Assembly: GCA_045596925.1 (NCBI GenBank)
Contig: JAZODH010000004.1
Location: 1 to 56,941, forward strand
Direction: 5' to 3'
Source: Eubacteriales bacterium
Lineage (GTDB): Bacteria > Bacillota > Clostridia > Oscillospirales > CAG-272
Length of the DNA stretch: 56,941 nucleotides
Shown here: piece by piece, positions 1-39,634 of the stretch
Position numbering within the stretch: the stretch's first letter is position 1
Layout: every line of letters starts with the position of its first letter
Made by a program: the position numbers and the translations under genes
Notes under the pieces: model-generated
Seen by the model: the letters and a program-made list of their open reading frames with translations, nothing else
What the model was told of the DNA's origin: nothing
Database searches by the model: none

Positions 1-653
1 AGAGTCATCGTCCAGAATATCGGGTTTGACTACCGTTAGAAATTACACTACTCTCAAACGGTGCCCGGCGTAGAGGACAACACCGTCCTGTTTGACTACC
101 GTTAGAAATTACACTACTCTCAAACCATTACACGGCAGGGAATGGAGACACAGCCGTTTGACTACCGTTAGAAATTACACTACTCTCAAACGCCCTTGAT
201 AAGCACCCAGACGTTGCCGTCGTTTGACTACCGTTAGAAATTACACTACTCTCAAACTATGTTCCCTATGTTCCCTATAAAATTTTAGTTTGACTACCGT
301 TAGAAATTACACTACTCTCAAACCGGCACATAGGCGGCAGGGATTCCGTATTTGTTTGACTACCGTTAGAAATTACACTACTCTCAAACGGACGGAGCTG
401 GACAAGATGGACAACCGGGGTTTGACTACCGTTAGAAATTACACTACTCTCAAACCTCTCATCGTCAGCCCTCCTCTACCTCCGGGTTTGACTACCGTTA
501 GAAATTACACTACTCTCAAACTTACGAGAGCCAGAATGTGCATGGTGTCTCGTTTGACTACCGTTAGAAATTACACTACTCTCAAACAAGGCAGGGCTTG
601 TCGACAATGTAAAGGTTGTTTGACTACCGTTAGAAATTACACTACTCTCAAAC
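1..653 (-). CRISPR. CRISPR array with at least 10 copies of a 36-bp repeat (minus-strand reading GTTTGAGAGTAGTGTAATTTCTAACGGTAGTCAAAC) and 30-bp spacers; continues beyond the left window edge
   Basis: Identical repeats at 24-59, 90-125, 156-191, 222-257, 288-323, 354-389, 420-455, 486-521, 552-587 and 618-653, with an exact 66-bp period. Nine complete unique 30-bp spacers plus a partial one at 1-23. Orientation is set by the cas gene direction, the GTTT...AAAC repeat polarity and tracrRNA complementarity. Confidence 0.97.
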
Positions 654-750
654 CTCAAATATGCAATTTGAGTGGAGCAGCCCGTCACTACAATGCGGTT
701 GTAACTTCCAACGGTATTGTTATTATATCACCTCCGTCAAAAAATGCAAA
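654..750 (-). promoter_or_regulatory. CRISPR leader with putative pre-crRNA promoter (TTTGCA-17-TGaTATAAT) and an ATTTGAG leader-repeat junction
   Basis: On the minus strand the -35 TTTGCA is at 750-745 and the extended -10 TGATATAAT has its hexamer at 727-722, with a 17-bp spacer. The last 7 leader nt (660-654) read ATTTGAG directly next to the first repeat. Confidence 0.5.
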
Positions 751-1066
751 GGTCTTCGTCTATTACCAGAGTATCTTCCATATGGTGTTTTTTACCTAAA
801 CGGTTTTCGGTAATCACCAGCACCTGTACAAGGCCGGCCTGCGGCTTATTCTTGCGAACGCTTTCCAGCAAACCGTTGACAACCGTCTGATTCAGAGCCA
901 GTTTGCAATAGACGGATTCCTGCATCATGAAAAATCCGTTTTTTATAAGATACTTCCGAAAACGGGTATATTCCCGCCGTTCTGCAGCGGTTTCTGTGGG
1001 AAGGTCAAACAACAGGAGCACTCTCATATATGCCGGATACCGAAACGATGCGCCATCCCACCGCAT
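737..1066 (-). CDS. cas2: CRISPR-associated endoribonuclease Cas2 (type II-like)
   Basis: 109-aa ORF. The N-terminus SFRYPAYMRVLLLFDLPTETAAERREYTRFRKYL matches the Cas2 beta1-alpha1 signature of type II-A Cas2 (SYRYMRMILMFDMPTDT...). The ATG at 1066-1064 overlaps the cas9 stop as TGATG. Confidence 0.9.
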   Translation of the reverse strand: MRWDGASFRYPAYMRVLLLFDLPTETAAERREYTRFRKYLIKNGFFMMQESVYCKLALNQTVVNGLLESVRKNKPQAGLVQVLVITENRLGKKHHMEDTLVIDEDLCIF

Positions 1067-4000
1067 CACCTCATTAAATCGGTCTTGGTTTCAAACAGGC
1101 CGGTAACAGACTGATTTATCAGAAATGCCGATTTGCGCTTTGTAATATTCATTCCTTCCAGAAGGATGGCAACCTTTCCCTTGCCGCACAGAGAAGAAAA
1201 ATCCGGGTTTTGTGCATTGCATTTAAAGGCCTTCAGAATTTCCAACAGCAGCTTTGCCTGCTCCAGAATCGACATGGCTTCAAATTTATCCCGATGCTGC
1301 ACCATATCCGCTTTCATGTTTTTGAAAAGGTCTGCATACACATTTTGGTCACATTTCTTCAGGAACCAATCATATAGATCCCGGTTGCCTTCGGCGGTCA
1401 GTCCGTCGTGCTCCGTAACAGGAAGTTCTGCTTTCCGGGCAGCGCAGCGCTCCACATATTTGGAAATGCTGCGAATGTATTTCTCACGGTTGGAATCCAT
1501 GGCGAGTTGATATGTGTGCTTACAAAGCAGTCGTTCTCCGGTTCTGCCGGAAATCAGCAGCCGCTTGCCATCCAATTCCAAAAGGGCATCCATGCGGATC
1601 TTCTTTGCTATGACTTTCGGTTCCCTCAGGCCAAGTTCTTCCGTGCAATAGCGGACAGGATCGGATTCATACAGGGATTTTTTATAGACATAGACCGGCT
1701 GCAGGGCAAGCACACGCTTTTTCTTGTCCGTATACTCCACAACACAGAAATAGGCTCCGGCTCGTTTATTGTAGCCGCCGTATTTCTCCACGGAAAGGCC
1801 CTGCTTCTTTTCCACCTGCCCCTTGCCTGCCGGCATAAGCTGCAAGTCAAACAGCTGACCCTTGACCTCCCGGGGCATTCTTGTGACCAGAACATTGTTT
1901 TTGGCCATCCATTTTTTCACGGTCTTGATCGTTTCGGTCTTATCCCATGCACCGGGCGTATCGAAGGCAAAAACCTTGTTCAGACTATAGTTTTCCCGGT
2001 GGATATTGGCAAAGAAACGGGATGTGAACTTGGTGTCATAAACATTGCCCACCACAATGTTGAGGTAAGCATCTTTTGCATGGTGCAAATCGTTGATATC
2101 CCGGCATTTGAGCATATCAAATTCATGACGGAAGTCGGACACGTTGCCTGCCTTGGAATACACAATGCGGATATCCGGGTTTATATTCTGCAGCAGGGTC
2201 GCAAGGGCCTTGGTGGACTGCTGAGTTTCCGTCAGCTGGCGGGCAACAAAATCGGACAGTTCCTTCTCTGTCAGGGGATAGGAACGGGTGAGCCGGTCGA
2301 ACTTTTTCGGACTGATGAGTCCCTGCTTTTTCATCTGCTGCCAAAGGGGCAGCATTTTTTTGCGGATATCTTCCCCAATGGGGTAGGTGTTGGTCTTTTC
2401 GCGATTGAGTTCGCTGCGAACCAGCACTCTGTTATCGAGGCTGTTGTCCTTGACTCTGGAACGGGGGAAAATATGATCGATATCATACTTTTCTCCGTGG
2501 AGAAGGGCATCCAAATCGATGGGGTCGCCGGAGTACATACATTTTCCCATCTGGAGATAATAAAGGTACAGTTTGTCGCTGCGAAGGCTGTTGTCGTCCT
2601 CTTTTTCCAGTTTTGCAAACATTGCGGCGCTTTCTTCCTTACAAGCAGCATACAAGGCCTGCAATTTGGATTTTCTGGACTCTGTACGCTTGCCCTTCAA
2701 TTCCAGCTTGTCCCCTCTGGCCATTTCGATAAAAATCTTCTCCGGCGCAGATCTTCGAATATCGACGATTTCATCTACAATGCGCAGCGCCTGCCGCAGG
2801 CTGCGGCGAACCATGGGGGAAACATACATCTCCTCCAGTTTGTCCGCAAGTGTCCTGTTGCCGCCAAGCAGCTCCGTCCTGTGGGCATCGGCCAGTTTGC
2901 CGAAACCGTATTCCGCAAGGATCTGCATCAGGTTTTTGTCGGTTTTCCGCAGATATGTAATTACATTTTTCCCCTGCTCGTCCTTCAGACCTGTGAGAAG
3001 TGTTTCGGACAGCCGTCCCCAATCCTTATACCTCAGTCGGCAGATGTGCTTATAATCCTCGTCCGTCAGGTCGTGTGTGTTTTTCTGCAGCCATCTGCGC
3101 AGCATCCGCTTATCTTCTCCAAAGACCAAAATGCTGCGGATGATCTCCTCCACCATGTCATAATCTCCGACACGGCTCAGAATGTCCCTAAAATCATGGA
3201 AAGAACGAAGGGTAGTCTTAACGGTATCGTCAATGCCGCTGAGTTCGTCGGTCTCTGCGATGAGACCTTTTCCACGCAAATAGCTCCAAATCTGTTTTTT
3301 TGTCACCTTGCGACTTGCGTCATAGAAGAAATGCTGCAGCAGCTCCTGCTTCACATTTTCCGGAAGCGGGTGTCCGTTAACACGGAGCAGGTTCATCTCA
3401 TTGCGCATGGCAAATTCGCTGTAGAGCAAAGAATCCTTCGGCAGGACCTTCTCGCCGGTATAGGTACATTTGCCGATCAAGTTTGCCATAAATGCATCGG
3501 CAGATGCTTCGGTATCCACAATGCTTTCAAAATTCCAAGGGTAAACCTTTTCGTGTTCTTTGCCGGCAAAACGCACCACCCAATGGTTGGGATGTTTACA
3601 GCTCAGCGGCCCCACATAATAGGGGATCCGGAATTCAAAAACTTTCACGATTTTTTCTTTTACCGTAAAGCCGTCGGCATCCGTTTCATTGAGGAAAGGC
3701 AGATATGTCGATGCATTCTCAAGAATTTTCAGCAGTTCCCGCTTGTGCAGTTGGTAAGGGATCACGCCGTTATCACTGCCACGAAGGCGTGGCAGGAACG
3801 AAGCATCCTGAATTTCCCGGAAGATACGGCAAAGTTCTGCATCGGATGCATCCGGTACAGGAAGTTCTTTCTTCAGGAATTTGCAGAAATCCTCCTGCGA
3901 ACAGGCATAGTCTCCACTTTTGGACTTATACTGATTGTATGCGGGAAGATTGTTGAGTTTCTCCGCCTTTTGCGCAAAAATGCGCTTGTAACTTCCCGGT

Positions 4001-5037
4001 GCGGTTTTTCGCACATATTTTTTCAGCAGTGACAAATCTTTGCGATTCTTTTCATAGAGTGCGATCTTTGCTTCGCTGATGCTCTGCTTCCCATCAAGGA
4101 TCTGGGAAAGTTTTGCGGCATCATAAACACGCTTTAACTGAAGCAGTAACTCCATACGATCCCCAAGCACAGTGCTGAGTGCATCGAAATTATCGTCCAG
4201 ACTGTTCTTTAAACTGAAACTCTTTACTTCAGCCTGCTTCAGTTCCTCGTCGCAAAACAGCGCGGCAAAAGCCACGGAAGCTCCGGCGAGCATGTCGCAA
4301 ACCGATGCAACATCGATGCTCAATTCCTTTTCAGAGGGAGCTTCAAAAAGTCCCTTCAAGGCTTTTTTCTTTGCGGTGATCCCCATGTCATTTCTGCACA
4401 GCACAGCCACAAAAGCAGCCTCGTCGGGTGCCTCGATTTTGCAGGCATATTCTTTTTCCAAATACATCTGCAGCTGCGCAAAAGCCTGCACAGGGGACGC
4501 AAAATCATCCCCGGAATCAGAAGTTTCATACAGGAAATGACCTCTGCTCTTCACGATGTGATGCAGCGCCAGATACACAAGCCGAACGTCGTGGGCATCT
4601 TTTGATGCTGCAAGTTCCCTGCGAAGGTGGTAAACCGTTGGATACTGCTTGTGGTATGTTTTGTCATTGTAGGAATCTCCGGCAAAGAGAGAAAACCTGC
4701 TGCCGGTTTTGTCTTCTTCGTGCAGGGCACTTTCCTGCATCCGCAGGAAAAATTGGGGATCGATTTCCGTTATCGCATTGGCAAATAAGCCCTGCAGCAG
4801 CAGTAAGCGCTGATTTCTGCGGTCGAGTCTCCGTCTGGCCGTTCTGCTGGATCTTCTGGCAGAAGCATCCTGCGCTTCCTCAAACAAACGCACACCCCAC
4901 ATGGCGTTGCCCTTGAACTTTAAAACATTGTAGGACTTATCGGTCACGGCCCAACCAACAGAATTTGTGCCAACATCCAGGCCAAGATAGTAACTGCCGA
5001 TATTTTTGTTGTTCCCGTTCATTTTCTCGTTTTTCAT
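1066..5037 (-). CDS. cas9: Cas9 (type II effector, about 1323 aa; the longest ORF would start at 5067)
   Basis: Motifs present: RuvC-I YYLGLDVGTNSVGWAV, Arg-rich bridge helix RRSSRTARRRLDRRNQR, HNH DIDHIFPRSRVKDNSLDNRVLV...N, RuvC-III HHAKDAYLNIVVG, and C-terminus SVTGLFETKTDL. The ATG at 5037 follows AAAGGA; the ATG at 5067 has no RBS. Confidence 0.95.
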   Translation of the reverse strand: MKNEKMNGNNKNIGSYYLGLDVGTNSVGWAVTDKSYNVLKFKGNAMWGVRLFEEAQDASARRSSRTARRRLDRRNQRLLLLQGLFANAITEIDPQFFLRMQESALHEEDKTGSRFSLFAGDSYNDKTYHKQYPTVYHLRRELAASKDAHDVRLVYLALHHIVKSRGHFLYETSDSGDDFASPVQAFAQLQMYLEKEYACKIEAPDEAAFVAVLCRNDMGITAKKKALKGLFEAPSEKELSIDVASVCDMLAGASVAFAALFCDEELKQAEVKSFSLKNSLDDNFDALSTVLGDRMELLLQLKRVYDAAKLSQILDGKQSISEAKIALYEKNRKDLSLLKKYVRKTAPGSYKRIFAQKAEKLNNLPAYNQYKSKSGDYACSQEDFCKFLKKELPVPDASDAELCRIFREIQDASFLPRLRGSDNGVIPYQLHKRELLKILENASTYLPFLNETDADGFTVKEKIVKVFEFRIPYYVGPLSCKHPNHWVVRFAGKEHEKVYPWNFESIVDTEASADAFMANLIGKCTYTGEKVLPKDSLLYSEFAMRNEMNLLRVNGHPLPENVKQELLQHFFYDASRKVTKKQIWSYLRGKGLIAETDELSGIDDTVKTTLRSFHDFRDILSRVGDYDMVEEIIRSILVFGEDKRMLRRWLQKNTHDLTDEDYKHICRLRYKDWGRLSETLLTGLKDEQGKNVITYLRKTDKNLMQILAEYGFGKLADAHRTELLGGNRTLADKLEEMYVSPMVRRSLRQALRIVDEIVDIRRSAPEKIFIEMARGDKLELKGKRTESRKSKLQALYAACKEESAAMFAKLEKEDDNSLRSDKLYLYYLQMGKCMYSGDPIDLDALLHGEKYDIDHIFPRSRVKDNSLDNRVLVRSELNREKTNTYPIGEDIRKKMLPLWQQMKKQGLISPKKFDRLTRSYPLTEKELSDFVARQLTETQQSTKALATLLQNINPDIRIVYSKAGNVSDFRHEFDMLKCRDINDLHHAKDAYLNIVVGNVYDTKFTSRFFANIHRENYSLNKVFAFDTPGAWDKTETIKTVKKWMAKNNVLVTRMPREVKGQLFDLQLMPAGKGQVEKKQGLSVEKYGGYNKRAGAYFCVVEYTDKKKRVLALQPVYVYKKSLYESDPVRYCTEELGLREPKVIAKKIRMDALLELDGKRLLISGRTGERLLCKHTYQLAMDSNREKYIRSISKYVERCAARKAELPVTEHDGLTAEGNRDLYDWFLKKCDQNVYADLFKNMKADMVQHRDKFEAMSILEQAKLLLEILKAFKCNAQNPDFSSLCGKGKVAILLEGMNITKRKSAFLINQSVTGLFETKTDLMR

Positions 5038-5054
5038 AATTGTTAAATCCTTTC

Positions 5055-5083
5055 TTGACAAAGTCATTGGGATTGTGCATAAT
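5055..5083 (+). promoter_or_regulatory. Near-consensus sigma-A promoter for tracrRNA (TTGACA-17-CATAAT)
   Basis: TTGACA at 5055-5060, a 17-nt spacer, then CATAAT at 5078-5083. It lies just upstream of the preferred cas9 start (5037) and inside the longest cas9 ORF (start 5067), on the opposite strand. Confidence 0.6.
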
Positions 5084-5089
5084 ATAGGT

Positions 5090-5203
5090 GTCTCAAAACT
5101 ACCGTTGAGATTACACTACAAGTTCAAATAAGCTTTTAGCGAAAGCATCGCTCCGGCGAACTCACAGTGTGTGAGGCAGAAGGCTCCGAAAGGAGTCTTT
5201 TTT
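5090..5203 (+). ncRNA. tracrRNA (anti-repeat, internal hairpins, intrinsic terminator)
   Basis: 5093-5129 (TCAAAACTACCGTTGAGATTACACTACAAGTTCAAAT) is complementary to nearly the whole minus-strand repeat, with the typical internal bulge. Hairpins follow at 5161-5175 and GGCTCC-GAAA-GGAGTC at 5182-5197, then TTTTTT at 5198-5203. Confidence 0.8.
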
Positions 5204-5317
5204 GTTTTTAGTATACATTGTTTTCTGTTTCAAAACAACTGGTTTCCCTTCGAAATGTTATCAAAACAGTAGTCCAATAAATGACACATTTTAAAAGCAA
5301 TTGAGTTTTTTTTCAAC

Positions 5318-5363
5318 AAAAACAGTACCGCCGCATTCTCACGAATGCGGCGGTGCTGTTTTG
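5318..5363 (-). terminator. Intrinsic terminator after the FGGY kinase gene (bidirectional hairpin)
   Basis: A 17-bp stem ACAGTACCGCCGCATTC / GAATGCGGCGGTGCTGT (5322-5359) flanked by A and T runs. Confidence 0.6.
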
Positions 5364-6842
5364 TTATTTATTCCATTCGTTATACAGGGGGGCAAGGGCT
5401 TTCTGCACCGCCTGATAGCGGGTGAAAATCTCTCCGTAGGCTTCGTGGCGGGCAGGATCCGGCTGCACCCAGCGTTTTTCCTTGATACAGATTTTGGCTG
5501 CTTCCTCGGCATCGGCAAACACGCCGCAGGCAATGCCTGCCAGCATGGCAGAGCCAAGGGAGGAATCGGAATTTTCCGTAATGCGCAGGGGGATACCCAA
5601 AACATCTGCGGTGATCTGGCTCCAGAGCGTGCCCTTGGCGCCGCCGCCGATAAGGGTGGCACCGTCGGTGCAGTAGGGGATCTGCAGGCTGTCCAGATAA
5701 TTTTTGCAATCCAGAAGGGAGAAACTGACGCCTTCCAGCACAGCACGGGTAAAGTGGGCTTTGGTATGCTGAGCGCCGATACCAATGAAGCTTCCCCGCA
5801 AACTGGGGTCTCCGAAGGGAGTCAGTTCCCCCTTGAGATAGGGGTGGAACAGAAGTCCCTCGGCACCGGGAGCGATCTGGGCTGCGCCGTCGTTCAGCCG
5901 GTCATAGGTCTCCCCGAAGGTGTCCCGATACCAGCGGTAGCTGGATGCTGCGGCTTTGGTAGCGGTGCCGGGATACCACAGACCGGGGGCAATATGGGAA
6001 TAGTTCACAAGGTGCTTATCGGGGTAAGCACGGTCGGTGATGACACAGATCCTGCCGGCGGTGGCCAGCTTCACGGTCATATCGCCCGGCTTTACGGCAC
6101 CTGCGGCAAAGACTTCCATGGCGGTATCCGTGGTGCCGCAGATGACCTTGGTGCCTTCGCACAGACCTGTCAGTTCCGCCGCGGTTTTTGTGACGGTACC
6201 CACCACATCTGTAGGCTTGACGATGGGCGGCAGGATCTCCGCAGGCAGGCCTGCCATGCGGCAGAGAGTCTCGTCCCATGCCAGTTTGTTGCAGTCGAAG
6301 AACATACTGCCTTCGGCTTCAATGTAGTCTGTGCAGTAGACTCCTGTCAGGAAATAGCGGATGTAGTCCTTTTCGAAGAACAGGAACTTTGCCTGGGAGA
6401 AGATTTCCCCATGGTGCTCCTTCAGCCAAATCAGCTGGGGCAAAGTCCAGATGGTGCTGGGCTTGTGATAGGTCTTTTCAAAAATCTCCTGCCCGTGGGC
6501 GGCAAAAAGGGCATCCGCCTGCTTGCGGCTGCGCAGATCCGTCCAGTGGATGGCATCCATGAGGGGCGTGCCGGTTTCGTCGCAAAGGAGGAATGTATGG
6601 GTGGCAGAGTCCACAGCTACGGCCAGAATGTCGGAGTTTTGGATGCCGCTTTTGGTCAGCAGGGCTTTGCAGCCTTCGCACAGGGCGGCGATCCAGTCCT
6701 GGGGCTTCTGCTCACAGGCGCCGGCTTCCGGGTAGTAGGTGGGATATTCTACGGTGTGTTCGGCAAGGATCTTGCCGGTTGTATCGATCAGTGTCGCTTT
6801 GGAGGCGCCGCCGCCAAAGTCGATGCCCAAAAGGTACTTCAT
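5364..6842 (-). CDS. FGGY-family carbohydrate kinase (xylulokinase/glycerol kinase-like)
   Basis: 492 aa. The N-terminus MKYLLGIDFGGGASKATLID is the FGGY phosphate-1 motif, and GGGAKGTLWSQITADVLGIP is the C-terminal FGGY motif. Confidence 0.9.
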   Translation of the reverse strand: MKYLLGIDFGGGASKATLIDTTGKILAEHTVEYPTYYPEAGACEQKPQDWIAALCEGCKALLTKSGIQNSDILAVAVDSATHTFLLCDETGTPLMDAIHWTDLRSRKQADALFAAHGQEIFEKTYHKPSTIWTLPQLIWLKEHHGEIFSQAKFLFFEKDYIRYFLTGVYCTDYIEAEGSMFFDCNKLAWDETLCRMAGLPAEILPPIVKPTDVVGTVTKTAAELTGLCEGTKVICGTTDTAMEVFAAGAVKPGDMTVKLATAGRICVITDRAYPDKHLVNYSHIAPGLWYPGTATKAAASSYRWYRDTFGETYDRLNDGAAQIAPGAEGLLFHPYLKGELTPFGDPSLRGSFIGIGAQHTKAHFTRAVLEGVSFSLLDCKNYLDSLQIPYCTDGATLIGGGAKGTLWSQITADVLGIPLRITENSDSSLGSAMLAGIACGVFADAEEAAKICIKEKRWVQPDPARHEAYGEIFTRYQAVQKALAPLYNEWNK

Positions 6843-6857
6843 CGTACTTCCCCTCTT

Positions 6858-7505
6858 TTAGTACTTGATCTCAAGGTTTGTGCCAGTGATGCCGGGAACC
6901 ACGCCTCTGCTGAGGAGGCCTTCATTTTCCACGTGGGCCACTACCCACTTGTTCTTCCGGAACAGGGTGGGCTCCTTTTCCGTAATGGTCAGATCCGTGT
7001 TGGTGCCGGCAGGCAGGCCCACTACGCAGCCGAAGCCGTCTTTGGTGACTTCACAGGGGCAGAAGTGCAGGGTGGTGGCGTAGATTTCCACAGCGGTGCC
7101 CTGGGGCATATAGAAGGCCGTGAACTTGGAGGAGTCGATCTTGCTGTCCTCCATGTCCCAGACGTGGGCCAGAAACAGCACCAGGGGAGTGGTGGCGACA
7201 TTGATCTCCTTGGAGGCGTGCCACTCGCAGCCGTTGAGGAAGCTGCTGTGACCCCAGCAGTGACCCATCTGGGTGGGCAGAGAGCCGTAGCACTCATTCT
7301 GGATCTGGGTTTTTACGGCCAAAGTTTCAAAGGCTTCCACGGAGGGCTGATAGGAAGAGCCGGTCTCGGGATTGGGGATCTTCTTTGCTTCTTCCATCAG
7401 TTCGGCGATGTTCAATTCGATAATTTTGCCGAAGGTTTTGAATTCTGCCGATTCCACATGGAACAGCGGCACATTGGGGTTCAGTTTCTTTAACGTTTCA
7501 AACAT
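6858..7505 (-). CDS. DUF4867-like cupin-fold protein (uncharacterised)
   Basis: About 215 aa counted from MFETLKKLNPNVP, with AAGGA upstream. Family assignment is from recalled similarity only. The longer ORF start at 7556 lacks an RBS. Confidence 0.6.
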   Translation of the reverse strand: MFETLKKLNPNVPLFHVESAEFKTFGKIIELNIAELMEEAKKIPNPETGSSYQPSVEAFETLAVKTQIQNECYGSLPTQMGHCWGHSSFLNGCEWHASKEINVATTPLVLFLAHVWDMEDSKIDSSKFTAFYMPQGTAVEIYATTLHFCPCEVTKDGFGCVVGLPAGTNTDLTITEKEPTLFRKNKWVVAHVENEGLLSRGVVPGITGTNLEIKY

Positions 7506-7535
7506 ATTTATTCCATCCTTATATGATAGCATAAT

Positions 7536-7562
7536 AGAGATATGCCAAAAAGGCATATCTCT
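7536..7562 (-). other. Perfect 11-bp hairpin between the iolB-like and DUF4867 genes
   Basis: AGAGATATGCC-AAAAA-GGCATATCTCT; no T-run follows on the minus strand. Confidence 0.4.
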
Positions 7563-7574
7563 ATTAAATTTCGA

Positions 7575-8369
7575 TTATTTCTGCTCGATCCATGCGTGGT
7601 CGGGATCGCTGCTTCTGTTGAAGCCCTGATAGTCCCCGGCCATGAGCCACAGGAAATAGGTTTCGTAACCGGGGGTGGAGACTGTGGCGTGGTAGCCCTT
7701 GGGCAGCTCCACCAGTTCGTCGTTTTTCACCCGGTAGGTCTCATCGATCTCGCCATCGGCCGTGTACAGGCACTGGATGCCGAAACCCTGCTGGGGATTA
7801 TACAGGAAGTAGTAGATCTCTTCGGCGATGCACTCGGTGGGCATATTGTCTTCGTCGTGCTTGTGGGGCGGGAAACCGGCCCAGTTGCCCTCGGTGGGGT
7901 AGGATTCGCCGATGGTCAGCACCTTGGCGTTGGAGTTGGAGTCCACAAGGAAGCTGGTCTCTCTCTCGAAGGGCACTTTGCCCAGCAGCTTCAAAACCAC
8001 ATGGTCTTCTCTCAGGACCTGAGGCTCGGTCTTTTCGCTGACGGGAGTGGCACAGACGGCGATCTTCACATTGTCCAAAGCGGTGATGGTCAGGCTCTCT
8101 TCTCTGCCGAAGTAGAAGCACTCAGCCTTGCGGTTTTCAAAAACCGTCATACGGTTGCCGATGTTTTCCCACTTGGTGGTGCCAAAGGTAACGTTGCAGT
8201 GGCCTTCCAGCATAACAAAGGCGGTTTCCTTATCCTCGGTACAGAAATCCACAGAGGTGCCGGCCTTCAGCATGATGATGCCGAATTCCAGTTTCTTCAG
8301 GCTGCATTCGCCGATTTTGCAGATGGGGGTATAGCCCTGCTGGGGCTTATAGGCTTTCTTATAATTCAT
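7575..8369 (-). CDS. iolB: 5-deoxy-glucuronate isomerase (IolB/KduI cupin family)
   Basis: 264 aa. GNWAGFPPHKHDEDNMPTECIAEEIYYF...PQQGFGIQCLYTADGEIDETYRV...LPKGYHATVSTPGYETYFLWLMAG...DPDHAWI closely parallels B. subtilis IolB. Confidence 0.8.
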   Translation of the reverse strand: MNYKKAYKPQQGYTPICKIGECSLKKLEFGIIMLKAGTSVDFCTEDKETAFVMLEGHCNVTFGTTKWENIGNRMTVFENRKAECFYFGREESLTITALDNVKIAVCATPVSEKTEPQVLREDHVVLKLLGKVPFERETSFLVDSNSNAKVLTIGESYPTEGNWAGFPPHKHDEDNMPTECIAEEIYYFLYNPQQGFGIQCLYTADGEIDETYRVKNDELVELPKGYHATVSTPGYETYFLWLMAGDYQGFNRSSDPDHAWIEQK

Positions 8370-9273
8370 AACCGTTCTCCTTCAAGAATTTTTTCACCGT
8401 TTCAAAGTTGGGAACACTTTCTCTTGCGCCGACGCCGGTGCACTTGATGGCGGACACGGCGCTGGAGAAATAGCAGCAGGTCAAAAGGTCGAAGCCCTTG
8501 CAGATGCCTGCGGCAAAGGCACCGTGGAACACATCGCCGGAGCCGTTGGTATCCACTGCTTCCACCGGGAATACGGGATAGGTTTTCAGGTCTTTGCCGT
8601 CATAGCAGACGCCGCCCTTTTTGCCTTGGGTGACCACCACCACTTGGGGATGATAGGTATCAAACAGGGTTTTTGCGGCACTTTCTGCGTCCTTGCAGCC
8701 GGTATGACCCATGGCAAATTCCTCGGAGGGGATCATGATATCTGTGAGCTTCAGAAGTCTTTCATAGCCCTCGTAGAGGCCGCCGCAGTCGTAGAGGACC
8801 TTTGTTCCGTTTGCTTTTGCAACCAGACAAGCCTCCTCTGCGCCGTCCATCTCGTTTCCGTCAATCATAAGAACTTCAGCTTCCGCAACAGCCTTCTTCT
8901 GAGCCTCGTTTAAGTGAAGCGCAGGCAGATTTCCTTTATCAAAAACGCAAGTACGTGACTTTGCCTCGGTGCTGAGCCAAATAACGGACGTAAAAGAACG
9001 ATAACCGCTCTCTGTTACTATGTTAGAGGTATCAACGCCGTACTTTTCGAAGTCTGCACGGAGGAAATTACCGCCGTTATCGTCCGAAAGAACGCCGATA
9101 AATCCGGAAGATTCACCAAGCTTGGAGGCCGCAACGATACCCGATGCGGTAGGTCCTCCGCCGGCGATCTTGGAGCCACTTGCACGAAGCTTTGTGTCCT
9201 CCGGGGGATAATAAGGAACGGTGATGAGCGTATCCATTACGCAAGCACCTATTCCAACTATTTTTACACTCAT
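8359..9273 (-). CDS. PfkB-family sugar (phosphate) kinase
   Basis: 304 aa. It has a ribokinase-like N-terminal GG motif (IAGGGPTASG) and the C-terminal DTNGSGDVFHGAFA motif. Confidence 0.85.
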   Translation of the reverse strand: MSVKIVGIGACVMDTLITVPYYPPEDTKLRASGSKIAGGGPTASGIVAASKLGESSGFIGVLSDDNGGNFLRADFEKYGVDTSNIVTESGYRSFTSVIWLSTEAKSRTCVFDKGNLPALHLNEAQKKAVAEAEVLMIDGNEMDGAEEACLVAKANGTKVLYDCGGLYEGYERLLKLTDIMIPSEEFAMGHTGCKDAESAAKTLFDTYHPQVVVVTQGKKGGVCYDGKDLKTYPVFPVEAVDTNGSGDVFHGAFAAGICKGFDLLTCCYFSSAVSAIKCTGVGARESVPNFETVKKFLKENGYEL

Positions 9274-15904: not shown

Positions 15905-16927
15905 TTGATAAAAGAGCTTGAAATGCAAAATCTGCCGACCCCGCTGCGGGATTTTGCCGCGTACAAGGGCGGCATTCAGGGTTGTTCTCCCAAGACCGTA
16001 TCCGAATATCTTTTTGACCTCCGAACCTTCTTCAAATACATAATCGCCACCCGAAACGGTATTTCCACCGAATCGGAAGAATTTGAAAAAATCAGTATAT
16101 CGTCCGTTGATATGGAATTGATCGCCTCGATCACCACGGCGGAGATAATGATGTTCCTTATGTATGCGGGTGACAAGCGCACAAACGCGTGGAGCGCAAA
16201 AGCACGCAAGCTCAGCGCTATTAAGGGCTTCTACAAATATTATGTAAACAAAAGTAAGATGCTCAAAGAAAATCCTGCAATAGATATCGAATCCCCCAAG
16301 CCCAAAAAGACACTTCCAAAGGTTCTTTCTCTTCAGGAAAGCATCTTATTGCTCGAAGCGGTCAAAAATGACACAAATTCAAAAAACACCGTCCGCGACT
16401 ACTGCATAATTACCCTTTTCCTGAACTGCGGAATGCGTCTCTCGGAGCTGGCAGGAATCAAACTCGGTGACATCGACTCAGAGCTTCGCTCGGTGAGGAT
16501 CACCGGCAAAGGAAGCAAACAAAGGATCGTTTATTTCAACCAAGCCTGTCAGTCGGCACTTTCGGATTACTTGAAGATCAGGCTCACAGAAGAACTTTTA
16601 AAGCTCGACATCAAGCATCTTTTCCTCAGTGGGCGGGGACGCAACGCGCCAATCAGCGTAAAGACCATTGAATGGATGGTCACAAAATACCTGGGGCTTG
16701 CAGGTCTTGAAAACCGAGGTTATTCGGTGCACAAGCTGAGGCACACCGCCGCCACCTTAATGTACCAATCGGGCAACGTGGACGTCAGAACCATAAAGGA
16801 CATTCTCGGTCACGAGCAGTTAAATACAACACAGATCTACACCCATGTCAGCAACAAAAACATGGAGGATGCAATGGCCTGCAATCCTTTGGCAAACATT
16901 AAGACCGAGCCCAAAGACGATCAATAA
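15905..16927 (+). CDS. Tyrosine site-specific recombinase, XerC/XerD family
   Basis: C-terminal catalytic motifs HKLRHTAATLMY and LGHEQLNTTQIYTHV, plus an N-terminal SAM-like domain. GGAGG lies 9 nt upstream of the TTG start; an alternative ATG is at 15923. Confidence 0.85.
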   Translation: MIKELEMQNLPTPLRDFAAYKGGIQGCSPKTVSEYLFDLRTFFKYIIATRNGISTESEEFEKISISSVDMELIASITTAEIMMFLMYAGDKRTNAWSAKARKLSAIKGFYKYYVNKSKMLKENPAIDIESPKPKKTLPKVLSLQESILLLEAVKNDTNSKNTVRDYCIITLFLNCGMRLSELAGIKLGDIDSELRSVRITGKGSKQRIVYFNQACQSALSDYLKIRLTEELLKLDIKHLFLSGRGRNAPISVKTIEWMVTKYLGLAGLENRGYSVHKLRHTAATLMYQSGNVDVRTIKDILGHEQLNTTQIYTHVSNKNMEDAMACNPLANIKTEPKDDQ

Positions 16928-36688: not shown

Positions 36689-36766
36689 TGGCCCGCCCGG
36701 GGGGATTCGAACCCTCGACCCACAGAATCGGAATCTGGCACTCTATCCAGGCTGAGCTACGGGCGG
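36689..36766 (-). tRNA. tRNA-Arg (anticodon CCG), CCA encoded
   Basis: It folds as a cloverleaf: acceptor CCGCCCG/CGGGCGG, D-arm GCTC..GAGT, anticodon loop TTCCGAT, T-loop TTCGAAT, discriminator G, then CCA. It has a C1-G72 pair and single mismatches at 27-43 and 50-64. Confidence 0.75.
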
Positions 36767-36928: not shown

Positions 36929-37004
36929 TGGGGCATCGCCAAGCGGTAAGGCAACGGACTCTGACTCCGTCATTACCTAGGTTCGAATCCTAGTGCCCCA
37001 GCCA
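36929..37004 (+). tRNA. tRNA-Gln (anticodon CTG), CCA encoded
   Basis: TGGGGCATCGCCAAGCGGTAAGGCA...CTCTGAC...GGTTCGAATCC...TGCCCCAGCCA is near-identical in layout to bacterial tRNA-Gln. Confidence 0.9.
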
Positions 37005-37207: not shown

Positions 37208-39634
37208 TTATTCAGCTTTCACCAAACTAAAATTCTTCAACGCAAAATACGGAAGCTTTGACGCCGCGTCTCCTCTTACAATAAAGATCGCGCCCTCACA
37301 TTCGGTCATGTCGTCGGGAACGTAAATATCAAAGGTTACGTTTTGCCACTCGTTTTTGTAGTTGACGGGTTTGTCAAGCACTGTGGAAATTCTACGGAAA
37401 TCATCGTATTTTACAGTGACGTAAGCCATTCCGCCGGCGTACCCGCAAATGTCAAAGGACACTCTGTACTTGCCTTCGCCGTACATCTGCACTTCCTCGG
37501 TGATCATACGGGAAACTCCGCCCGTAAAGTAATTGTTGTGGTCGTACATTACGTATACGGTCTCTCCGTCCCAAGTCTCAACCTCCATATCGACCTGGTA
37601 CGAGCCGTGCTCAGAGAAACGGCTGATCTCGCCCTCGTCTGCAAGGAAAAGCTCTTCTCCATCATAACAAGGGACAAAACGGTAATTTCCGTCTACCGTC
37701 TCAAAGCTCTCTGCCGCCTTTGCCTTGACCAGCGCGTCGCCCGTGGAATACTCGATACCCTTTATTTCAACAGTCTCGGGTTTTGTCTGTGTCCGACGAA
37801 GCGCCGCAAGCATATCAGTAGTCGAAAAATAGACCACGCCATCCTTTACGATCGGCTCATGCTCGGGCGAGAACTTATAGTTTCCTACGTAGGTTACTCC
37901 ACTCGCCTTATAGTCTACCACGTTCCACTGGCGGTATATCTGACGGTACCCGAGATCCTCGTTCTCGGAAATATTTATCTCGTTTTCCTTACCGTGGTCG
38001 GTATAGGCAATATCATCGATATCCTCCAGAAGCTCACCGTCAATATAAAAATTGATGAAATTCAAAGTATAGTTATCGGTATAGATCATGCCGTCCCCAT
38101 TATCAAGAATGAAGAGCTTCCCTGTTTTATCCGCAACAAGTCCTGCGTGGGGATCGGTAACGCCTGTAAGCCCCGGAATTGAAATGTTTTCAAAGGTGAA
38201 GGTCTTTTCAAGCACACCCATCTTTCTACCCCTGAAAAAGTGAGGAATGTTGATGCAGTCCATACAGTCCAGATTCCTTATAATGTTTGAGTGTGCTCTC
38301 TCCTTTGATTGGTCACCGTTATACTGGTTGTTTATTACACCGTCATTTGTGCGGAAGATATAAATTCCATCCAGCACGTTATCGGTGGTAGAGCTTTGAG
38401 GGAAAAGTGCCGCGCAGGTGGTGCCGATAGTTATATCGGTGAAAAGCGTATTCTTCGTGCTGTAAACAAGAGCGTTGTCACCTACGTAAAGCAAACAATG
38501 GTCAATTACGGCATCCGTTCCGCTGTATACGGAGATACCGTCGGTGGTCATCAGAGTTGAAAAGCACTTGACGTTTTCAACCTTGATCTTATCTGCGTTT
38601 ACTGCAATGTTATACGCACGGGTGTCCAAAAAGAACAGGCCTTCAAGATAGCCGTCCGCACAGGACATCGAGGTCAATTTATAAGAGCTTCCCTCGGTTC
38701 CGCCGTCGCGGATCTTATAGTTGTAAATATCGCTGAACGGGTCAAGCACGGCACCGCGCCCAAACATTTTTGATCCCACAGCATCCGCGGTGAATTTCAC
38801 TCTGCAATTCAAAACGGCCTGAGGCTCAACGTAAATTATTGTGTTTGGCTCGGTAATATCCATCAGCCCCGTCTCGGTCTCGTACCAACCGTCAACATAA
38901 AGCACGTTAGGATCATCCTTTGAAGGAATATCTCCGGGATATTCGGGATAATCCGCACAAACGGAAATGAGAGAATTGTCGTCATTATCAAGTCGGATAA
39001 GGAAATAATCGGGCTTATCAAGGAAAACAGAGATAACGCCGTCCTTGAACTCACTTTTGAAATTTTTCGCTGAGGGAATAACGGAATACGCCTCAAAGTC
39101 CTGCGAGACCTTGATATCCACGCGCACCTGTCCGCCCGAAAAAGCAAATCTTGTAAAACGGCGAACCACGTCGCTTCCGATAGAACGCCCGAAAATGTTA
39201 TACTCCATGGTGTGGTTATAAACAGTCAAGGGTCGAGTCTTGCTTCCCATGGTTACCGAAACCCTGTAATCATAGTTACGGTTAATATCCTCATGAAAGT
39301 CGGGATAGATCACAAGTCTCTTCTGCTCCAAAAACTCTTCCTTTGAAATAAGAATGCCGTTTTCGTCATAAATCTCCGGTTCGGGTTCAACGGGTTCTGT
39401 CTCGGGAGGCTCGGTTTCTGCCGGCTCTGTTTCGATAGGTTCGGTCTCGCCGTCCGTATCATCGGGTGTCTTTTCATCTCCCGACTGATTCCCAACGTCA
39501 TCCCCCTGCTCTGTTCCGTTGTCGCCCTTATTGGCGGGAAGATCATCGTTTTCCTTGTCCGAGCAAGAAGCCAGGCTCAGCAGAAGAACGAGAGAAAGTG
39601 CGAGCAATGCAAGTTTAAAAAATACTTTTTTCAT
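37208..39634 (-). CDS. Paralog P1 (808 aa): lipoprotein with acidic TEP linker, GH49-like beta-sandwich and beta-helix core, and C-terminal CBM-like domain
   Basis: Signal peptide with lipobox LASC. Blocks shared with P2-P5: NYDYRVSV, RRFTRFAFSGGQVRVDIKV, PSAKNFKSEFKDGVISVFLDKPDYF, ADYPEYPGDIPSKD, MTTDGIS, YVGDNALVYS, ITIGTTCAALFPQ. Confidence 0.85.
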   Translation of the reverse strand: MKKVFFKLALLALSLVLLLSLASCSDKENDDLPANKGDNGTEQGDDVGNQSGDEKTPDDTDGETEPIETEPAETEPPETEPVEPEPEIYDENGILISKEEFLEQKRLVIYPDFHEDINRNYDYRVSVTMGSKTRPLTVYNHTMEYNIFGRSIGSDVVRRFTRFAFSGGQVRVDIKVSQDFEAYSVIPSAKNFKSEFKDGVISVFLDKPDYFLIRLDNDDNSLISVCADYPEYPGDIPSKDDPNVLYVDGWYETETGLMDITEPNTIIYVEPQAVLNCRVKFTADAVGSKMFGRGAVLDPFSDIYNYKIRDGGTEGSSYKLTSMSCADGYLEGLFFLDTRAYNIAVNADKIKVENVKCFSTLMTTDGISVYSGTDAVIDHCLLYVGDNALVYSTKNTLFTDITIGTTCAALFPQSSTTDNVLDGIYIFRTNDGVINNQYNGDQSKERAHSNIIRNLDCMDCINIPHFFRGRKMGVLEKTFTFENISIPGLTGVTDPHAGLVADKTGKLFILDNGDGMIYTDNYTLNFINFYIDGELLEDIDDIAYTDHGKENEINISENEDLGYRQIYRQWNVVDYKASGVTYVGNYKFSPEHEPIVKDGVVYFSTTDMLAALRRTQTKPETVEIKGIEYSTGDALVKAKAAESFETVDGNYRFVPCYDGEELFLADEGEISRFSEHGSYQVDMEVETWDGETVYVMYDHNNYFTGGVSRMITEEVQMYGEGKYRVSFDICGYAGGMAYVTVKYDDFRRISTVLDKPVNYKNEWQNVTFDIYVPDDMTECEGAIFIVRGDAASKLPYFALKNFSLVKAE

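What the first reader, a model, noticed from the sequence alone, without database searches (positions are those of the whole stretch)
1..5203. Type II CRISPR-Cas9 locus with cas9 translationally coupled to cas2 and no cas1, csn2 or cas4
Seen in sequence:
- The cas9 stop TGA (1068-1066) overlaps the cas2 ATG (1066-1064) as TGATG.
- cas2 ends at 737 and the array starts at 653.
- Upstream of cas9 there is only the tracrRNA, a terminator and a sugar kinase gene.
- No frame on either strand in 1-5363 has room for, or any resemblance to, Cas1, Csn2 or Cas4.

Established knowledge: canonical type II loci are cas9-cas1-cas2 (plus csn2 in II-A or cas4 in II-B). Cas2 is only known to act as the structural core of the Cas1-Cas2 integrase.

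Inference: the Cas9 size, the GTTTGAGAG...CAAAC repeat and the divergent upstream tracrRNA all look II-A-like. That suggests a precise loss of cas1 (and csn2) that kept operon coupling. Alternatively, the locus borrows an integrase in trans. An intact, retained cas2 without cas1 is unusual and raises the question of what Cas2 does here.
Basis: partly seen in the sequence, partly recalled or inferred. Interest (0 to 1): 0.65.

Follow-up and report, generated by a model that had tools for sequence, protein, structure and literature searches.

The report
Cas9 locus with gutted adaptation genes
This is an ordinary type II-A CRISPR-Cas9 system in which two deletions removed the spacer-acquisition genes, and the "cas2" beside cas9 is a stitched leftover (Cas1 start, Cas2 core, Csn2 tail), not an intact stand-alone gene.

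Summary
The layout is real: array (24-653), leader, a 110-codon Cas2-like ORF (737-1069), cas9 (1066-5037/5067) and a divergent tracrRNA (~5090-5205). There is no full cas1 or csn2.

The ORF is not an intact cas2. Two deletions, about 843 and 672 nt relative to a canonical relative, removed cas1 from codon 12 onward. They also removed the cas2 3' end and csn2 codons 1 to about 198. What remains:
- 11 Cas1 codons, read out of frame
- a Cas2 core (residues 15-87)
- the last 23 codons of Csn2

The TGATG overlap uses an ATG in the old cas9-cas1 spacer.

Both junctions appear in independent metagenome runs, and one contig spans both. Strains 95-98% identical still carry cas1-cas2-csn2.

Among 76 related species-level loci, 13 (17%) have other, independent deletions of the same module. 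All 13 keep cas9, the csn2 3' end that overlaps the array promoter, the leader and an array. Their arrays are shorter (median 6 vs 16 repeats).

Best reading: an interference-only, frozen-memory Cas9 system with a decaying relic. Cas9-only type II loci are already described. Interest is low to moderate.

The parts
1..653 (-). CRISPR array: 10 identical 36-nt repeats (GTTTGAGAGTAGTGTAATTTCTAACGGTAGTCAAAC, at 24-59 ... 618-653), nine 30-nt spacers and a partial spacer at 1-23. The array runs off the contig end.
   Evidence: 10 matches with 0 mismatches; 0 expected in shuffles
654..736 (-). Leader. About 74% identical to the leader of canonical relative L001. Holds the -10 box TATAAT (727-722) of the predicted pre-crRNA promoter.
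745..750 (-). Predicted -35 box (TTTGCA) of the array promoter. It lies inside the last csn2 codons (..L C I F *). An equivalent stretch is kept in all 13 deletion loci of relatives.
   Evidence: consensus match plus conservation; function inferred
737..808 (-). csn2 remnant: the last 23 codons (ENRLGKKHHMEDTLVIDEDLCIF) plus the TGA stop (739-737). These are now residues 88-110 of the chimeric ORF.
   Evidence: Contigs of runs X4 and X5 match 740/696-808 and then continue into the csn2 body (..CYEKLN(V/I)(M/L)LI).
804..808 (-). Junction 2 (cas2 | csn2) with 5-nt microhomology GAAAA. The deletion is about 672 nt in L001 coordinates.
   Evidence: In run X5 the intact cas2 contig matches down to 804 and the intact csn2 contig up to 808. 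The deleted form is crossed by contigs in X9, X10, X16 and X19.
809..1027 (-). Cas2 core: residues 15-87 of the ORF, from the native-type start MRVLLLFDLP (ATG 1027-1025) to ..VLVIT. Secondary structure is b1-a1-b2-b3-a2-b4. The native last ~28 residues (b5 and C-terminal tail) are missing.
   Evidence: HMMs align from residue 15; AlphaFold2 pLDDT 90 or more for about residues 21-80
1030..1031 (-). Junction 1 (cas1 codon 11 | cas2 codon ~4) with 2-nt microhomology. The deletion is about 843 nt in L001 coordinates.
   Evidence: X4 and X5 contigs match 1030-1104/1504 and then continue into cas1 (..SKLDYKMDYL). The X5 cas2 contig matches up to 1031 and then continues into the cas1 3' end (FLKFPAYEL*). 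The deleted form is crossed in X1, X2/X3, X6 and X10.
1029..1061 (-). cas1 remnant: GTG start (1061-1059) plus 10 codons (VGWRIVSVSGI). In its own frame it opens an 18-codon ORF that ends at TGA 1007-1005. In the cas2 frame it reads as residues ~4-14 (WDGASFRYPAY).
   Evidence: (7 of 11 identical to Cas1 MGWRVVSVSSL), and direct reading
737..1069 (-). Chimeric relic ORF of 110 codons from GTG 1069, 109 from ATG 1066, or 96 from ATG 1027. The ATG at 1066-1064 overlaps the cas9 TGA (1068-1066).
   Evidence: singleton cluster
1069..1072 (-). Shine-Dalgarno-like GAGG. It lies 7 nt before the old cas1 GTG (1061) but only 2 nt before the ATG at 1066.
   Evidence: Read directly. Use of the site is inferred.
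1066..5037 (-). cas9, 1323 aa from ATG 5037 (an in-frame ATG at 5067 would give 1333 aa). All domains are present, and RuvC/HNH motifs are intact (GLDVGTNS, IEMAR, DIDHIFP, LNREK, HHAKDAY).
   Evidence: Catalytic-motif assignment is by comparison with SpCas9 from established knowledge.
5090..5205 (+). tracrRNA, divergent from cas9. Anti-repeat at about 5092-5127, then three hairpins and a terminator (5178-5201 plus a T run). Predicted promoter: TTGACA 5055-5060, 17 nt, CATAAT ending at 5083.
   Evidence: repeat:anti-repeat duplex -36.2 kcal/mol against -16.6 +/- 3.0 for shuffles
5319..5362 (.). Bidirectional terminator hairpin between the CRISPR locus and the FGGY sugar kinase gene (5364-6842, - strand). 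It marks the locus boundary.

Best explanation
This is a type II-A CRISPR-Cas9 locus whose adaptation module (cas1-cas2-csn2) has been destroyed by two microhomology-mediated deletions.

Deletion 1 (about 843 nt) joins cas1 codon 11 to cas2 codon ~4. Deletion 2 (about 672 nt) joins cas2 codon ~78 in frame to the last 23 codons of csn2.

The resulting 96-110-codon ORF is a relic. It is a Cas2 ferredoxin core with no Cas1 partner and no C-terminal strand or tail. A frame-shifted Cas1 N-terminus precedes it and a Csn2 tail follows it.

The interference half is intact: cas9, tracrRNA, leader promoter and array. The locus most likely still makes crRNA:tracrRNA:Cas9 complexes and cleaves DNA matching its existing spacers. 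It probably cannot add spacers by itself, so the memory is frozen.

Shown: the anatomy, the breakpoints, the reality of the deletions, intact near-identical alleles, and recurrent independent loss in relatives.

Inferred: that interference still works, that acquisition has stopped, and that the relic has no function.
For: 1. Canonical relatives. L001, L004 and L005 (Cas9 69-70% identical) carry cas9-cas1(291 aa)-cas2(101/106)-csn2(221)-array.

2. Homology blocks. Window DNA matches L001 in three blocks only: the cas9 3' end, the cas2 body, and the csn2 last codons plus leader plus first repeat. tblastn gives Cas2 residues 5-88 at 69% identity. It also finds a Csn2 C-terminal match and a Cas1 N-terminal match in another frame.

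3. Intact alleles in close strains. Contigs 95-98% identical in runs X4, X5, X7 and X11 continue from window positions 1030, 1031, 804 and 808 into cas1, the cas1 3' end, the cas2 3' end and the csn2 body. This fixes both breakpoints and their 2-nt and 5-nt microhomologies.

4. The deleted form is real. Junction 1 is crossed in X1, X2/X3, X6 and X10. Junction 2 is crossed in X9, X10, X16 and X19. One 334-nt X10 contig crosses both.

5. HMM and structure. Cas2 HMMs align only from residue 15. AlphaFold2 gives a confident core for residues 15-87. Residues 1-11 and 91-108 have pLDDT below 50.

6. Uniqueness. The chimera is a singleton cluster. The next hits are normal 101/106-aa Cas2 proteins at 70% identity or less.

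7. Survey of relatives.
- Of 76 evaluable species-representative loci, 13 have other large deletions of the same module, with different breakpoints. L002/L003 do too.
- All keep an intact cas9 ORF, the csn2 3' end, the leader and an array.
- Fusions are in frame in 4 of 9, against 3 expected.
- Arrays are shorter (median 6 vs 16 repeats; one-sided Mann-Whitney p=0.0003).
- L081, the nearest analogue (cas1 lost, cas2 and csn2 left), is visibly broken.

8. Relaxed constraint. Variants seen only on deletion-carrying contigs include T87I and N60S at Cas2-invariant residues. Variants shared with intact strains are 7 synonymous to 2 nonsynonymous.

9. Interference parts look functional. These are the intact cas9, a strong anti-repeat duplex with promoter and terminator, and a conserved leader with predicted promoter.
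Against: - The ORF is still open, its Cas2 core folds confidently, and the TGATG overlap could allow termination-reinitiation from cas9. Expression is therefore not excluded.
- Junction 2 is in frame.
- The rest of the genome is unavailable, so a second cas1-cas2 acting in trans cannot be ruled out.
- There are no expression data.
- No protospacer was found for any spacer, so current interference activity is unproven.
- The relaxed-constraint signal rests on very few substitutions from low-coverage contigs.
- The array-length comparison is not corrected for phylogeny.
Confidence: 0.85

Rival explanations
1. Assembly artefact: the cas9-cas2-array arrangement arose from a collapse or mis-join in a metagenome assembly, and the real genome has the full module.
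For: The window is a single metagenomic contig that ends in the array. Intact alleles at 95-98% identity co-exist in public data and could in principle cause chimeric assembly.
Against: Independent runs from different studies and hosts contain contigs that cross junction 1 (X1, X2/X3, X6, X10) and junction 2 (X9, X10, X16, X19) with 0-6 mismatches and no gaps. One contig crosses both. Both junctions show the microhomology typical of real deletions.
Confidence: 0.02
2. The Cas2-core chimera is a functional protein kept for a Cas1-independent role (nuclease, regulator or toxin-like) and is translated by coupling to cas9.
For: - The ORF is open, its ferredoxin core is predicted with high confidence, and the TGATG overlap is present.
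- Junction 2 is in frame.
- The deletion lineage is found in several hosts and years.
- Cas1-independent nuclease activities of Cas2 have been reported (my own knowledge, not checked here).
Against: - It is a singleton among 5.8 billion clustered proteins.
- It has lost the C-terminal strand and tail.
- The N-terminal 14 residues are frame-shifted cas1 and spacer sequence.
- The Shine-Dalgarno sequence is positioned for the dead cas1 start, not for this ATG.
- Relatives with analogous scars mostly lack any Cas2 part, and their fusions are out of frame in 5 of 9.
- L081's cas2 remnant is 5'-truncated.
- T87I and N60S occur at invariant positions in deletion-carrying variants.
Confidence: 0.08
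3. Split system: the array is still fed with new spacers by a cas1-cas2(-csn2) module elsewhere in the same genome, or by recombination with arrays of co-resident intact strains. This would add to the relic explanation rather than replace it.
For: - Trans-use of adaptation modules is documented for other systems (PMC8092290; bioRxiv 10.1101/2024.10.25.620265).
- Spacer exchange by recombination was proposed for Cas9-only Campylobacter coli (PMC4607530).
- All 10 repeats are identical and the array has at least 10 units.
- Strains with an intact module share the habitats.
- L035 has a gutted module but 37 repeats.
Against: - There is no Cas1, Csn2 or Cas4 in the 56.9-kb window.
- The exact repeat is absent from the GTDB representative genomes and from JGI metagenome contigs, so no second locus with this repeat is known.
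- II-A acquisition needs a cognate Csn2 and Cas9 as well (Heler 2015, as cited in PMC4607530).
- Across relatives, gutted loci have shorter arrays.
Confidence: 0.15

Closest known systems
Canonical type II-A CRISPR-Cas (Streptococcus pyogenes, S. thermophilus CRISPR3 and Enterococcus faecalis type: tracrRNA, cas9-cas1-cas2-csn2, array)
   Same: - A Cas9 of about 1320 aa with REC, HNH, RuvC and PI domains.
- An upstream divergent tracrRNA with an SpCas9-like anti-repeat, nexus and hairpins.
- 36-nt repeats and 30-nt spacers.
- A leader directly after csn2.
- Relatives at 69-70% Cas9 identity have the full four-gene operon.
   Different: cas1 is reduced to 11 codons and csn2 to 23 codons. cas2 is truncated at its 3' end and fused to the csn2 tail. 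No self-contained adaptation is possible.
'CRISPR-Cas9-only' type II-C loci of Campylobacter coli clade 3 (PMC4607530), and the 'incomplete' type II loci noted by Chylinski et al. 2013 (PMC3737331)
   Same: cas9 plus repeats without a working cas1-cas2. They are presumed able to interfere but not to acquire spacers.
   Different: - Those are II-C loci (no csn2) in Campylobacterota.
- Here the subtype is II-A in an uncultured gut Clostridia bacterium.
- Here the deletion scars are still readable to the base.
- Here a Cas2 core survives as an ORF.
Adaptation-less CRISPR loci served in trans (for example type VI-B with II-C in Flavobacterium, PMC8092290; VI-A in Listeria seeligeri, bioRxiv 10.1101/2024.10.25.620265)
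   Same: An effector plus an array without its own integrase.
   Different: In those systems a donor module is present in the same genome and cross-use was shown experimentally. Here no donor is known and the genome is incomplete.

Membership tests
Type II-A CRISPR-Cas | Cas9 signature effector with RuvC and HNH nuclease domains | tested here: met
   TIGR01865 scores 892 bits. Pfam finds Cas9_REC, Cas9_PI, HNH_4, Cas9_RuvC and Cas9-BH. Family-invariant catalytic motifs are present.
Type II-A CRISPR-Cas | tracrRNA with an anti-repeat complementary to the CRISPR repeat | tested here: met
   At 5090-5205(+). The duplex is -36.2 kcal/mol against -16.6 +/- 3.0 for shuffles. Promoter and terminator are predicted. 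Rfam gave no hit at gathering threshold.
Type II-A CRISPR-Cas | csn2 as the subtype-specific fourth gene | tested here: not met
   Only the last 23 codons remain (740-808). The remnant and the canonical relatives show II-A ancestry. The locus is therefore a degraded II-A, not a complete member.
Type II-A CRISPR-Cas | cas1-cas2 integrase genes next to cas9 | tested here: not met
   cas1 is reduced to 11 codons and cas2 lacks its 3' end. No Cas1 is found elsewhere in the window.
Type II-A CRISPR-Cas | CRISPR array with 36-nt repeats and ~30-nt spacers, preceded by a leader | tested here: met
Cas2 (PF09827 / TIGR01573) | Ferredoxin-like b1-a1-b2-b3-a2-b4 core matching the family HMM | tested here: met
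   PF09827 52 bits and TIGR01573 63 bits, aligning from residue 15. PDB Cas2 hits reach E 2e-22. AlphaFold2 predicts the core at residues 15-87.
Cas2 (PF09827 / TIGR01573) | Native C-terminal segment (..KQFSKMEYIVGxxxGDIINSDERFVEL in close relatives) | tested here: not met
   It is replaced after ..VLVIT(E) by the Csn2 tail. The tail has pLDDT below 50.
Cas2 (PF09827 / TIGR01573) | A Cas1 partner encoded in the same genome | not testable with these tools
   None is present in the 56.9-kb window. The rest of the genome is not available: the species is not among the GTDB representatives (best IleRS match 92% partial, otherwise 80%).
Adaptation-less 'Cas9-only' type II loci | Intact cas9 and array with no functional cas1-cas2 in the locus | tested here: met
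Adaptation-less 'Cas9-only' type II loci | No ongoing spacer acquisition | tested here: inconclusive
   Coverage of the array in public runs is too thin. Only spacer S7 was seen again, in X25. Indirect support comes from the shorter arrays of gutted loci in relatives.

The most novel reading that the evidence does not exclude
The Cas2-core/Csn2-tail chimera is not junk. On this reading it is made by termination-reinitiation at the cas9 TGATG overlap and was kept for a Cas1-independent job, for example as a small nuclease or a Cas9-associated factor. It would then be a naturally evolved solo Cas2.

A broader variant is that shedding of the adaptation module is positively selected in gut Clostridia II-A systems, for instance to stop self-targeting acquisition. 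This would explain why 17% of species-level loci carry independent deletions bounded exactly by the cas9 stop and the array promoter.
Probability: 0.08. Interest if true: 0.6.

Novelty: new member of a known kind. Interest (0 to 1): 0.3.

Why it matters
- For annotation: a Cas2 HMM hit next to cas9 can be a deletion scar. Automated pipelines would call this locus 'cas9-cas2', and could take it for a new type II variant, when it is a degraded II-A.
- For biology: the locus is a clean, base-resolved example of how adaptive immunity becomes fixed immunity. The integrase module erodes between two protected boundaries, the cas9 stop and the array promoter inside the csn2 3' end.
- The side survey suggests this is common. 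About one in six species-level loci of this Cas9 clade is affected, and those loci have shorter arrays. That bears on how much of gut-bacterial CRISPR is still adaptive.
- Cas9 orthologues from such loci remain usable as tools.

Tried and rejected
- Exact look-ups of the window's Cas9 (1333-aa and 1323-aa forms) in the contig index found nothing. The source sample and the flanking genome could not be retrieved.
- The exact 36-nt repeat is absent from the GTDB representative genomes and from JGI metagenome contigs. No close Cas9 relative was found in JGI contigs.
- The IleRS gene placed the organism only as an uncultured Eubacteriales/Oscillospiraceae-like gut bacterium (best match 92% partial, otherwise 80% or less). 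A whole-genome Cas1 search was therefore impossible.
- Spacer targets were not found:
  - no hit for the array in GenBank phages;
  - no exact 26-nt hit for six spacers in IMG/VR;
  - no self-target in the window.
  So there is no PAM and no target information.
- Rfam gave only two tRNAs and no tracrRNA or CRISPR family hit.
- I tested whether in-frame fusion is favoured, which would hint at function. It is 4 of 9 against 3 expected, so the idea was rejected.
- I tested whether the Cas2 and Csn2 C-termini, which look alike (..SDERFVEL vs ..DEDLCIF), mean the tail substitutes for the Cas2 tail. The stretch is too short to be significant and AlphaFold2 gives it low confidence, so I did not pursue it.
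- A 151-nt X20 contig suggests a third deletion allele. The contig sequence could not be obtained, so this stays open.

Full report
**1. What is in the sequence**

The first 5.4 kb of the window hold one CRISPR-Cas locus on the minus strand.
- Ten perfect 36-nt repeats (GTTTGAGAGTAGTGTAATTTCTAACGGTAGTCAAAC) lie at 24-653 with 30-nt spacers. The array runs off the contig end.
- An 83-nt leader follows.
- A 110-codon ORF lies at 737-1069.
- A 1323/1333-codon cas9 lies at 1066-5037/5067.
- On the plus strand there is a tracrRNA at about 5090-5205.
- A bidirectional terminator and an FGGY sugar kinase gene close the locus.

Cas9 is complete: TIGR01865 scores 892 bits, and the REC, BH, HNH, RuvC and PI domains are all found. 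It keeps the motifs that are invariant in its clade.

The tracrRNA anti-repeat pairs with the repeat at -36.2 kcal/mol, against -16.6 +/- 3.0 for shuffled repeats. It has an 11-of-12 sigma-70 promoter match and an intrinsic terminator.

No full-length Cas1, Csn2 or Cas4 is present anywhere in the 56.9-kb window.
- tblastn with II-A Cas1, Cas2 and Csn2 finds only fragments.
- Pfam scans of 33 ORFs, covering all the large genes, show housekeeping and sugar-metabolism genes only.

**2. The 'cas2' is a deletion scar**

Both Cas2 HMMs align only from residue 15 (MRVLLLFDLP...), which is where close Cas2 proteins of 101 aa begin.

A relative with 70% identical Cas9 (L001, an Oscillospiraceae MAG) has the canonical II-A operon: cas9, cas1 (291 aa), cas2 (106 aa), csn2 (221 aa), then the array. 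Window DNA matches it in only three blocks:
- 1296-1087 matches the cas9 3' end.
- 1031-804 matches the cas2 body.
- 756-618 matches the last csn2 codons, the leader and the first repeat.

The C-terminus of the ORF (TLVIDEDLCIF*) is the Csn2 C-terminus (TVIIDKDLCIF* in L001). In another reading frame, 1061-1029 encodes VGWRIVSVSGI, the Cas1 N-terminus (MGWRVVSVSSL in L001).

**3. Breakpoints to the base, and proof that the deletions are real**

Assembled contigs of public runs were laid on the region.

Runs X4 and X5, with X7 and X11 in part, hold strains 95-98% identical that are not deleted.
- Their contigs match the window up to position 1030 and then continue into cas1 (...SKLDYKMDYL).
- They match the cas2 body from 1031 and then continue upstream into the cas1 3' end (FLKFPAYEL*).
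- They match down to 804 and then continue into the cas2 3' end (QYAKMEFIVG).
- They match 696/740-808 and then continue into the csn2 body (CYEKLN(V/I)(M/L)LI).

This gives two deletions:
- Deletion 1 joins cas1 codon 11 to cas2 codon ~4, with 2-nt microhomology at 1030-1031. It is about 843 nt in L001 coordinates.
- Deletion 2 joins cas2 codon ~78 to csn2 codon ~199, with 5-nt microhomology (GAAAA, 804-808). It is about 672 nt.

The distance from the cas9 stop to the first repeat is 413 nt here, against about 1,940-2,000 nt in intact relatives.

The deleted form is seen independently.
- Junction 1 is crossed by contigs in X1, X2/X3, X6 and X10.
- Junction 2 is crossed in X9, X10, X16 and X19.
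- A single 334-nt X10 contig (748-1081) spans both.

These runs come from several studies, years and sources (pig gut, manure, gut, air). An assembly artefact is therefore excluded, and the deletion lineage circulates.

**4. Anatomy of the relic ORF**

- Residues 1-14 are the former cas9-cas1 spacer plus Cas1 codons read out of frame.
- Residues 15-87 are the Cas2 core.
- Residues 88-110 are the Csn2 tail.

AlphaFold2 with 33 Cas2 homologues predicts b1-a1-b2-b3-a2-b4 for residues 15-87. pLDDT is 90 or more for about residues 21-80. It is below 50 for residues 1-11 and 91-108.

The native C-terminal ~28 residues are missing. From my knowledge of Cas1-Cas2 structures, that segment contributes to dimer packing and Cas1 contact. 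I did not test this here.

The Shine-Dalgarno-like GAGG (1072-1069) sits 7 nt before the dead cas1 GTG (1061). That start now opens an 18-codon ORF ending at 1005. The GAGG sits only 2 nt before the ATG at 1066. The 'translational coupling' is thus a by-product of the old cas9-cas1 junction. Reinitiation at the TGATG overlap cannot be excluded.

**5. Is the relic conserved or used?**

The chimera is a singleton in a 5.8-billion-protein collection. The next hits are ordinary 101/106-aa Cas2 proteins at 70% identity or less.

On deletion-carrying contigs, the variants not shared with intact strains include T87I and N60S, both at residues invariant in the Cas2 alignment, plus L20F and one synonymous change. 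Variants shared with intact strains are 7 synonymous to 2 nonsynonymous. The numbers are small, but the direction fits relaxed constraint.

**6. The same decay recurs in relatives**

The closest Cas9 (73% identity; L002/L003) is followed by a 118-aa ORF that is Cas1 2-124 fused to the last 13 residues of Csn2, with no cas2. L006 (69%) has Cas1 1-63 fused to Csn2 123-221.

A scan of species-representative genomes with a Cas9 profile gave 80 loci, of which 76 could be evaluated.
- Thirteen have large deletions inside cas1-cas2-csn2, mostly with different breakpoints. L071 and L079 look like one event.
- One more, L011, has a cas1 frameshift.
- All 13 keep a full-length cas9 ORF (1302-1350 aa), the last csn2 codons (D-L/F-C-...), the leader and an array.

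In the window, the predicted array promoter has its -35 box (TTTGCA, 750-745) inside the csn2 LCIF* codons and its -10 box (TATAAT) at 727-722. This offers a simple reason why every scar stops short of the csn2 end.

Left breakpoints cluster early in cas1 and right breakpoints late in csn2. This is what I would expect for pseudogene erosion bounded by two elements under selection.

Fusions are in frame in 4 of 9 cases against 3 expected, so nothing points to selection for fusion proteins. L081, the only other locus that lost cas1 but kept cas2 and csn2, has a 5'-truncated cas2 and a frame-shifted csn2.

Complete arrays are shorter in gutted loci: median 6 repeats (n=12) against 16 (n=34), one-sided Mann-Whitney p=0.0003. 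This is not corrected for phylogeny.

**7. Mechanism proposed**

Shown:
- The locus has an intact effector, tracrRNA, leader and array.
- It has no integrase.
- The loss was by two microhomology deletions.
- The loss is recent, because intact alleles exist within about 2-5% divergence.

Inferred:
- Pre-crRNA is transcribed from the leader promoter.
- It is processed with the tracrRNA and loaded on Cas9.
- Cas9 cleaves DNA matching the existing spacers.
- No new spacers are added unless an integrase acts in trans or arrays are exchanged by recombination.
- The Cas2-core ORF is a non-functional remnant.

**8. Comparison with what is known**

By ancestry and by mechanism this is a type II-A system. 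By content it fails two defining features, csn2 and cas1-cas2, so it is a degraded II-A.

Type II loci without an adaptation module are already described:
- 'CRISPR-Cas9-only' loci in Campylobacter coli clade 3 (PMC4607530).
- 'Incomplete' type II loci (PMC3737331).

Trans-use of adaptation modules is documented for other types (PMC8092290; bioRxiv 10.1101/2024.10.25.620265). The 2025 classification update describes adaptation-less subtypes of other types. In the passages I read, it does not name this arrangement as a type II variant (PMC12669027).

**9. Verdict**

- The finding is a new member of a known kind.
- The side result on recurrent, bounded loss of the adaptation module in about 17% of related species-level loci, with shorter arrays, is the more interesting lead. 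It needs a phylogeny-aware census.

Noticed in passing
L007-L086 (GTDB species-representative loci); deleted: L007, L010, L029, L035, L038, L051, L053, L059, L062, L071, L074, L079, L081; also L002/L003: About 17% (13 of 76) of related II-A loci have independently gutted cas1-cas2-csn2 modules. All keep cas9, the csn2 3' end, the leader and an array. Their arrays are shorter (median 6 vs 16 repeats).
   Followed up: partly
L035 (Eubacterium sp. OM08-24, NZ_QSTA01000002), cas9 5001-8957, array from ~9587: A cultured isolate has a gutted module (Cas1 1-42 plus Csn2 96-219, out of frame) yet 37 repeats. It is an outlier among the deleted loci and a possible experimental model.
   Followed up: no
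window 39702-42701(-), 42934-45936(-), 48048-51056(-); also 37208-39634(-) and 46097-47689(-): Three paralogous ~1000-aa proteins, 43% identical to each other in the two pairs compared. They have a lipoprotein-like N-terminus and no Pfam match. Two further large ORFs beside them also have no Pfam match.
   Followed up: partly
window 737-775 versus the native Cas2 C-terminus (alignment A2, columns 101-115): The Csn2 C-terminus (..TLVIDEDLCIF*) resembles the native Cas2 C-terminus of this clade (..GDIINSDERFVEL*), and MAFFT aligns them. This may be chance, or both tails may bind a similar surface.
   Followed up: no
window 790-867, run X20: One 151-nt contig joins cas2 (867->804) to the csn2 tail (808->790) with 68 extra nt between. 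This hints at a third, different deletion allele in a sheep-gut strain.
   Followed up: no
L011 8946-9820: cas1 is split between frames at residues ~123/131 in an otherwise canonical locus with more than 38 repeats. This is either a frameshift or a sequencing error.
   Followed up: no
window 258-287: Spacer S6 (TATGTTCCCTATGTTCCCTATAAAATTTTA) contains a 9-nt tandem duplication, which is unusual for a spacer.
   Followed up: no
window 156-251 (run X25) and repeat 618-653 (run X13): Spacer S7 with its flanking repeats is present exactly in another gut metagenome (X25). X13 holds the same repeat flanking a spacer (TTTAGGGGTTACAATAGGGAACAGGGGAAC) that is not in the visible part of this array.
   Followed up: partly
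window 15905-16927(+), 36692-36766(-), 36929-37001(+): A tyrosine recombinase (Phage_integrase family) gene lies about 11 kb from the CRISPR locus. Two tRNA genes are also present. No link to the locus was seen.
   Followed up: no
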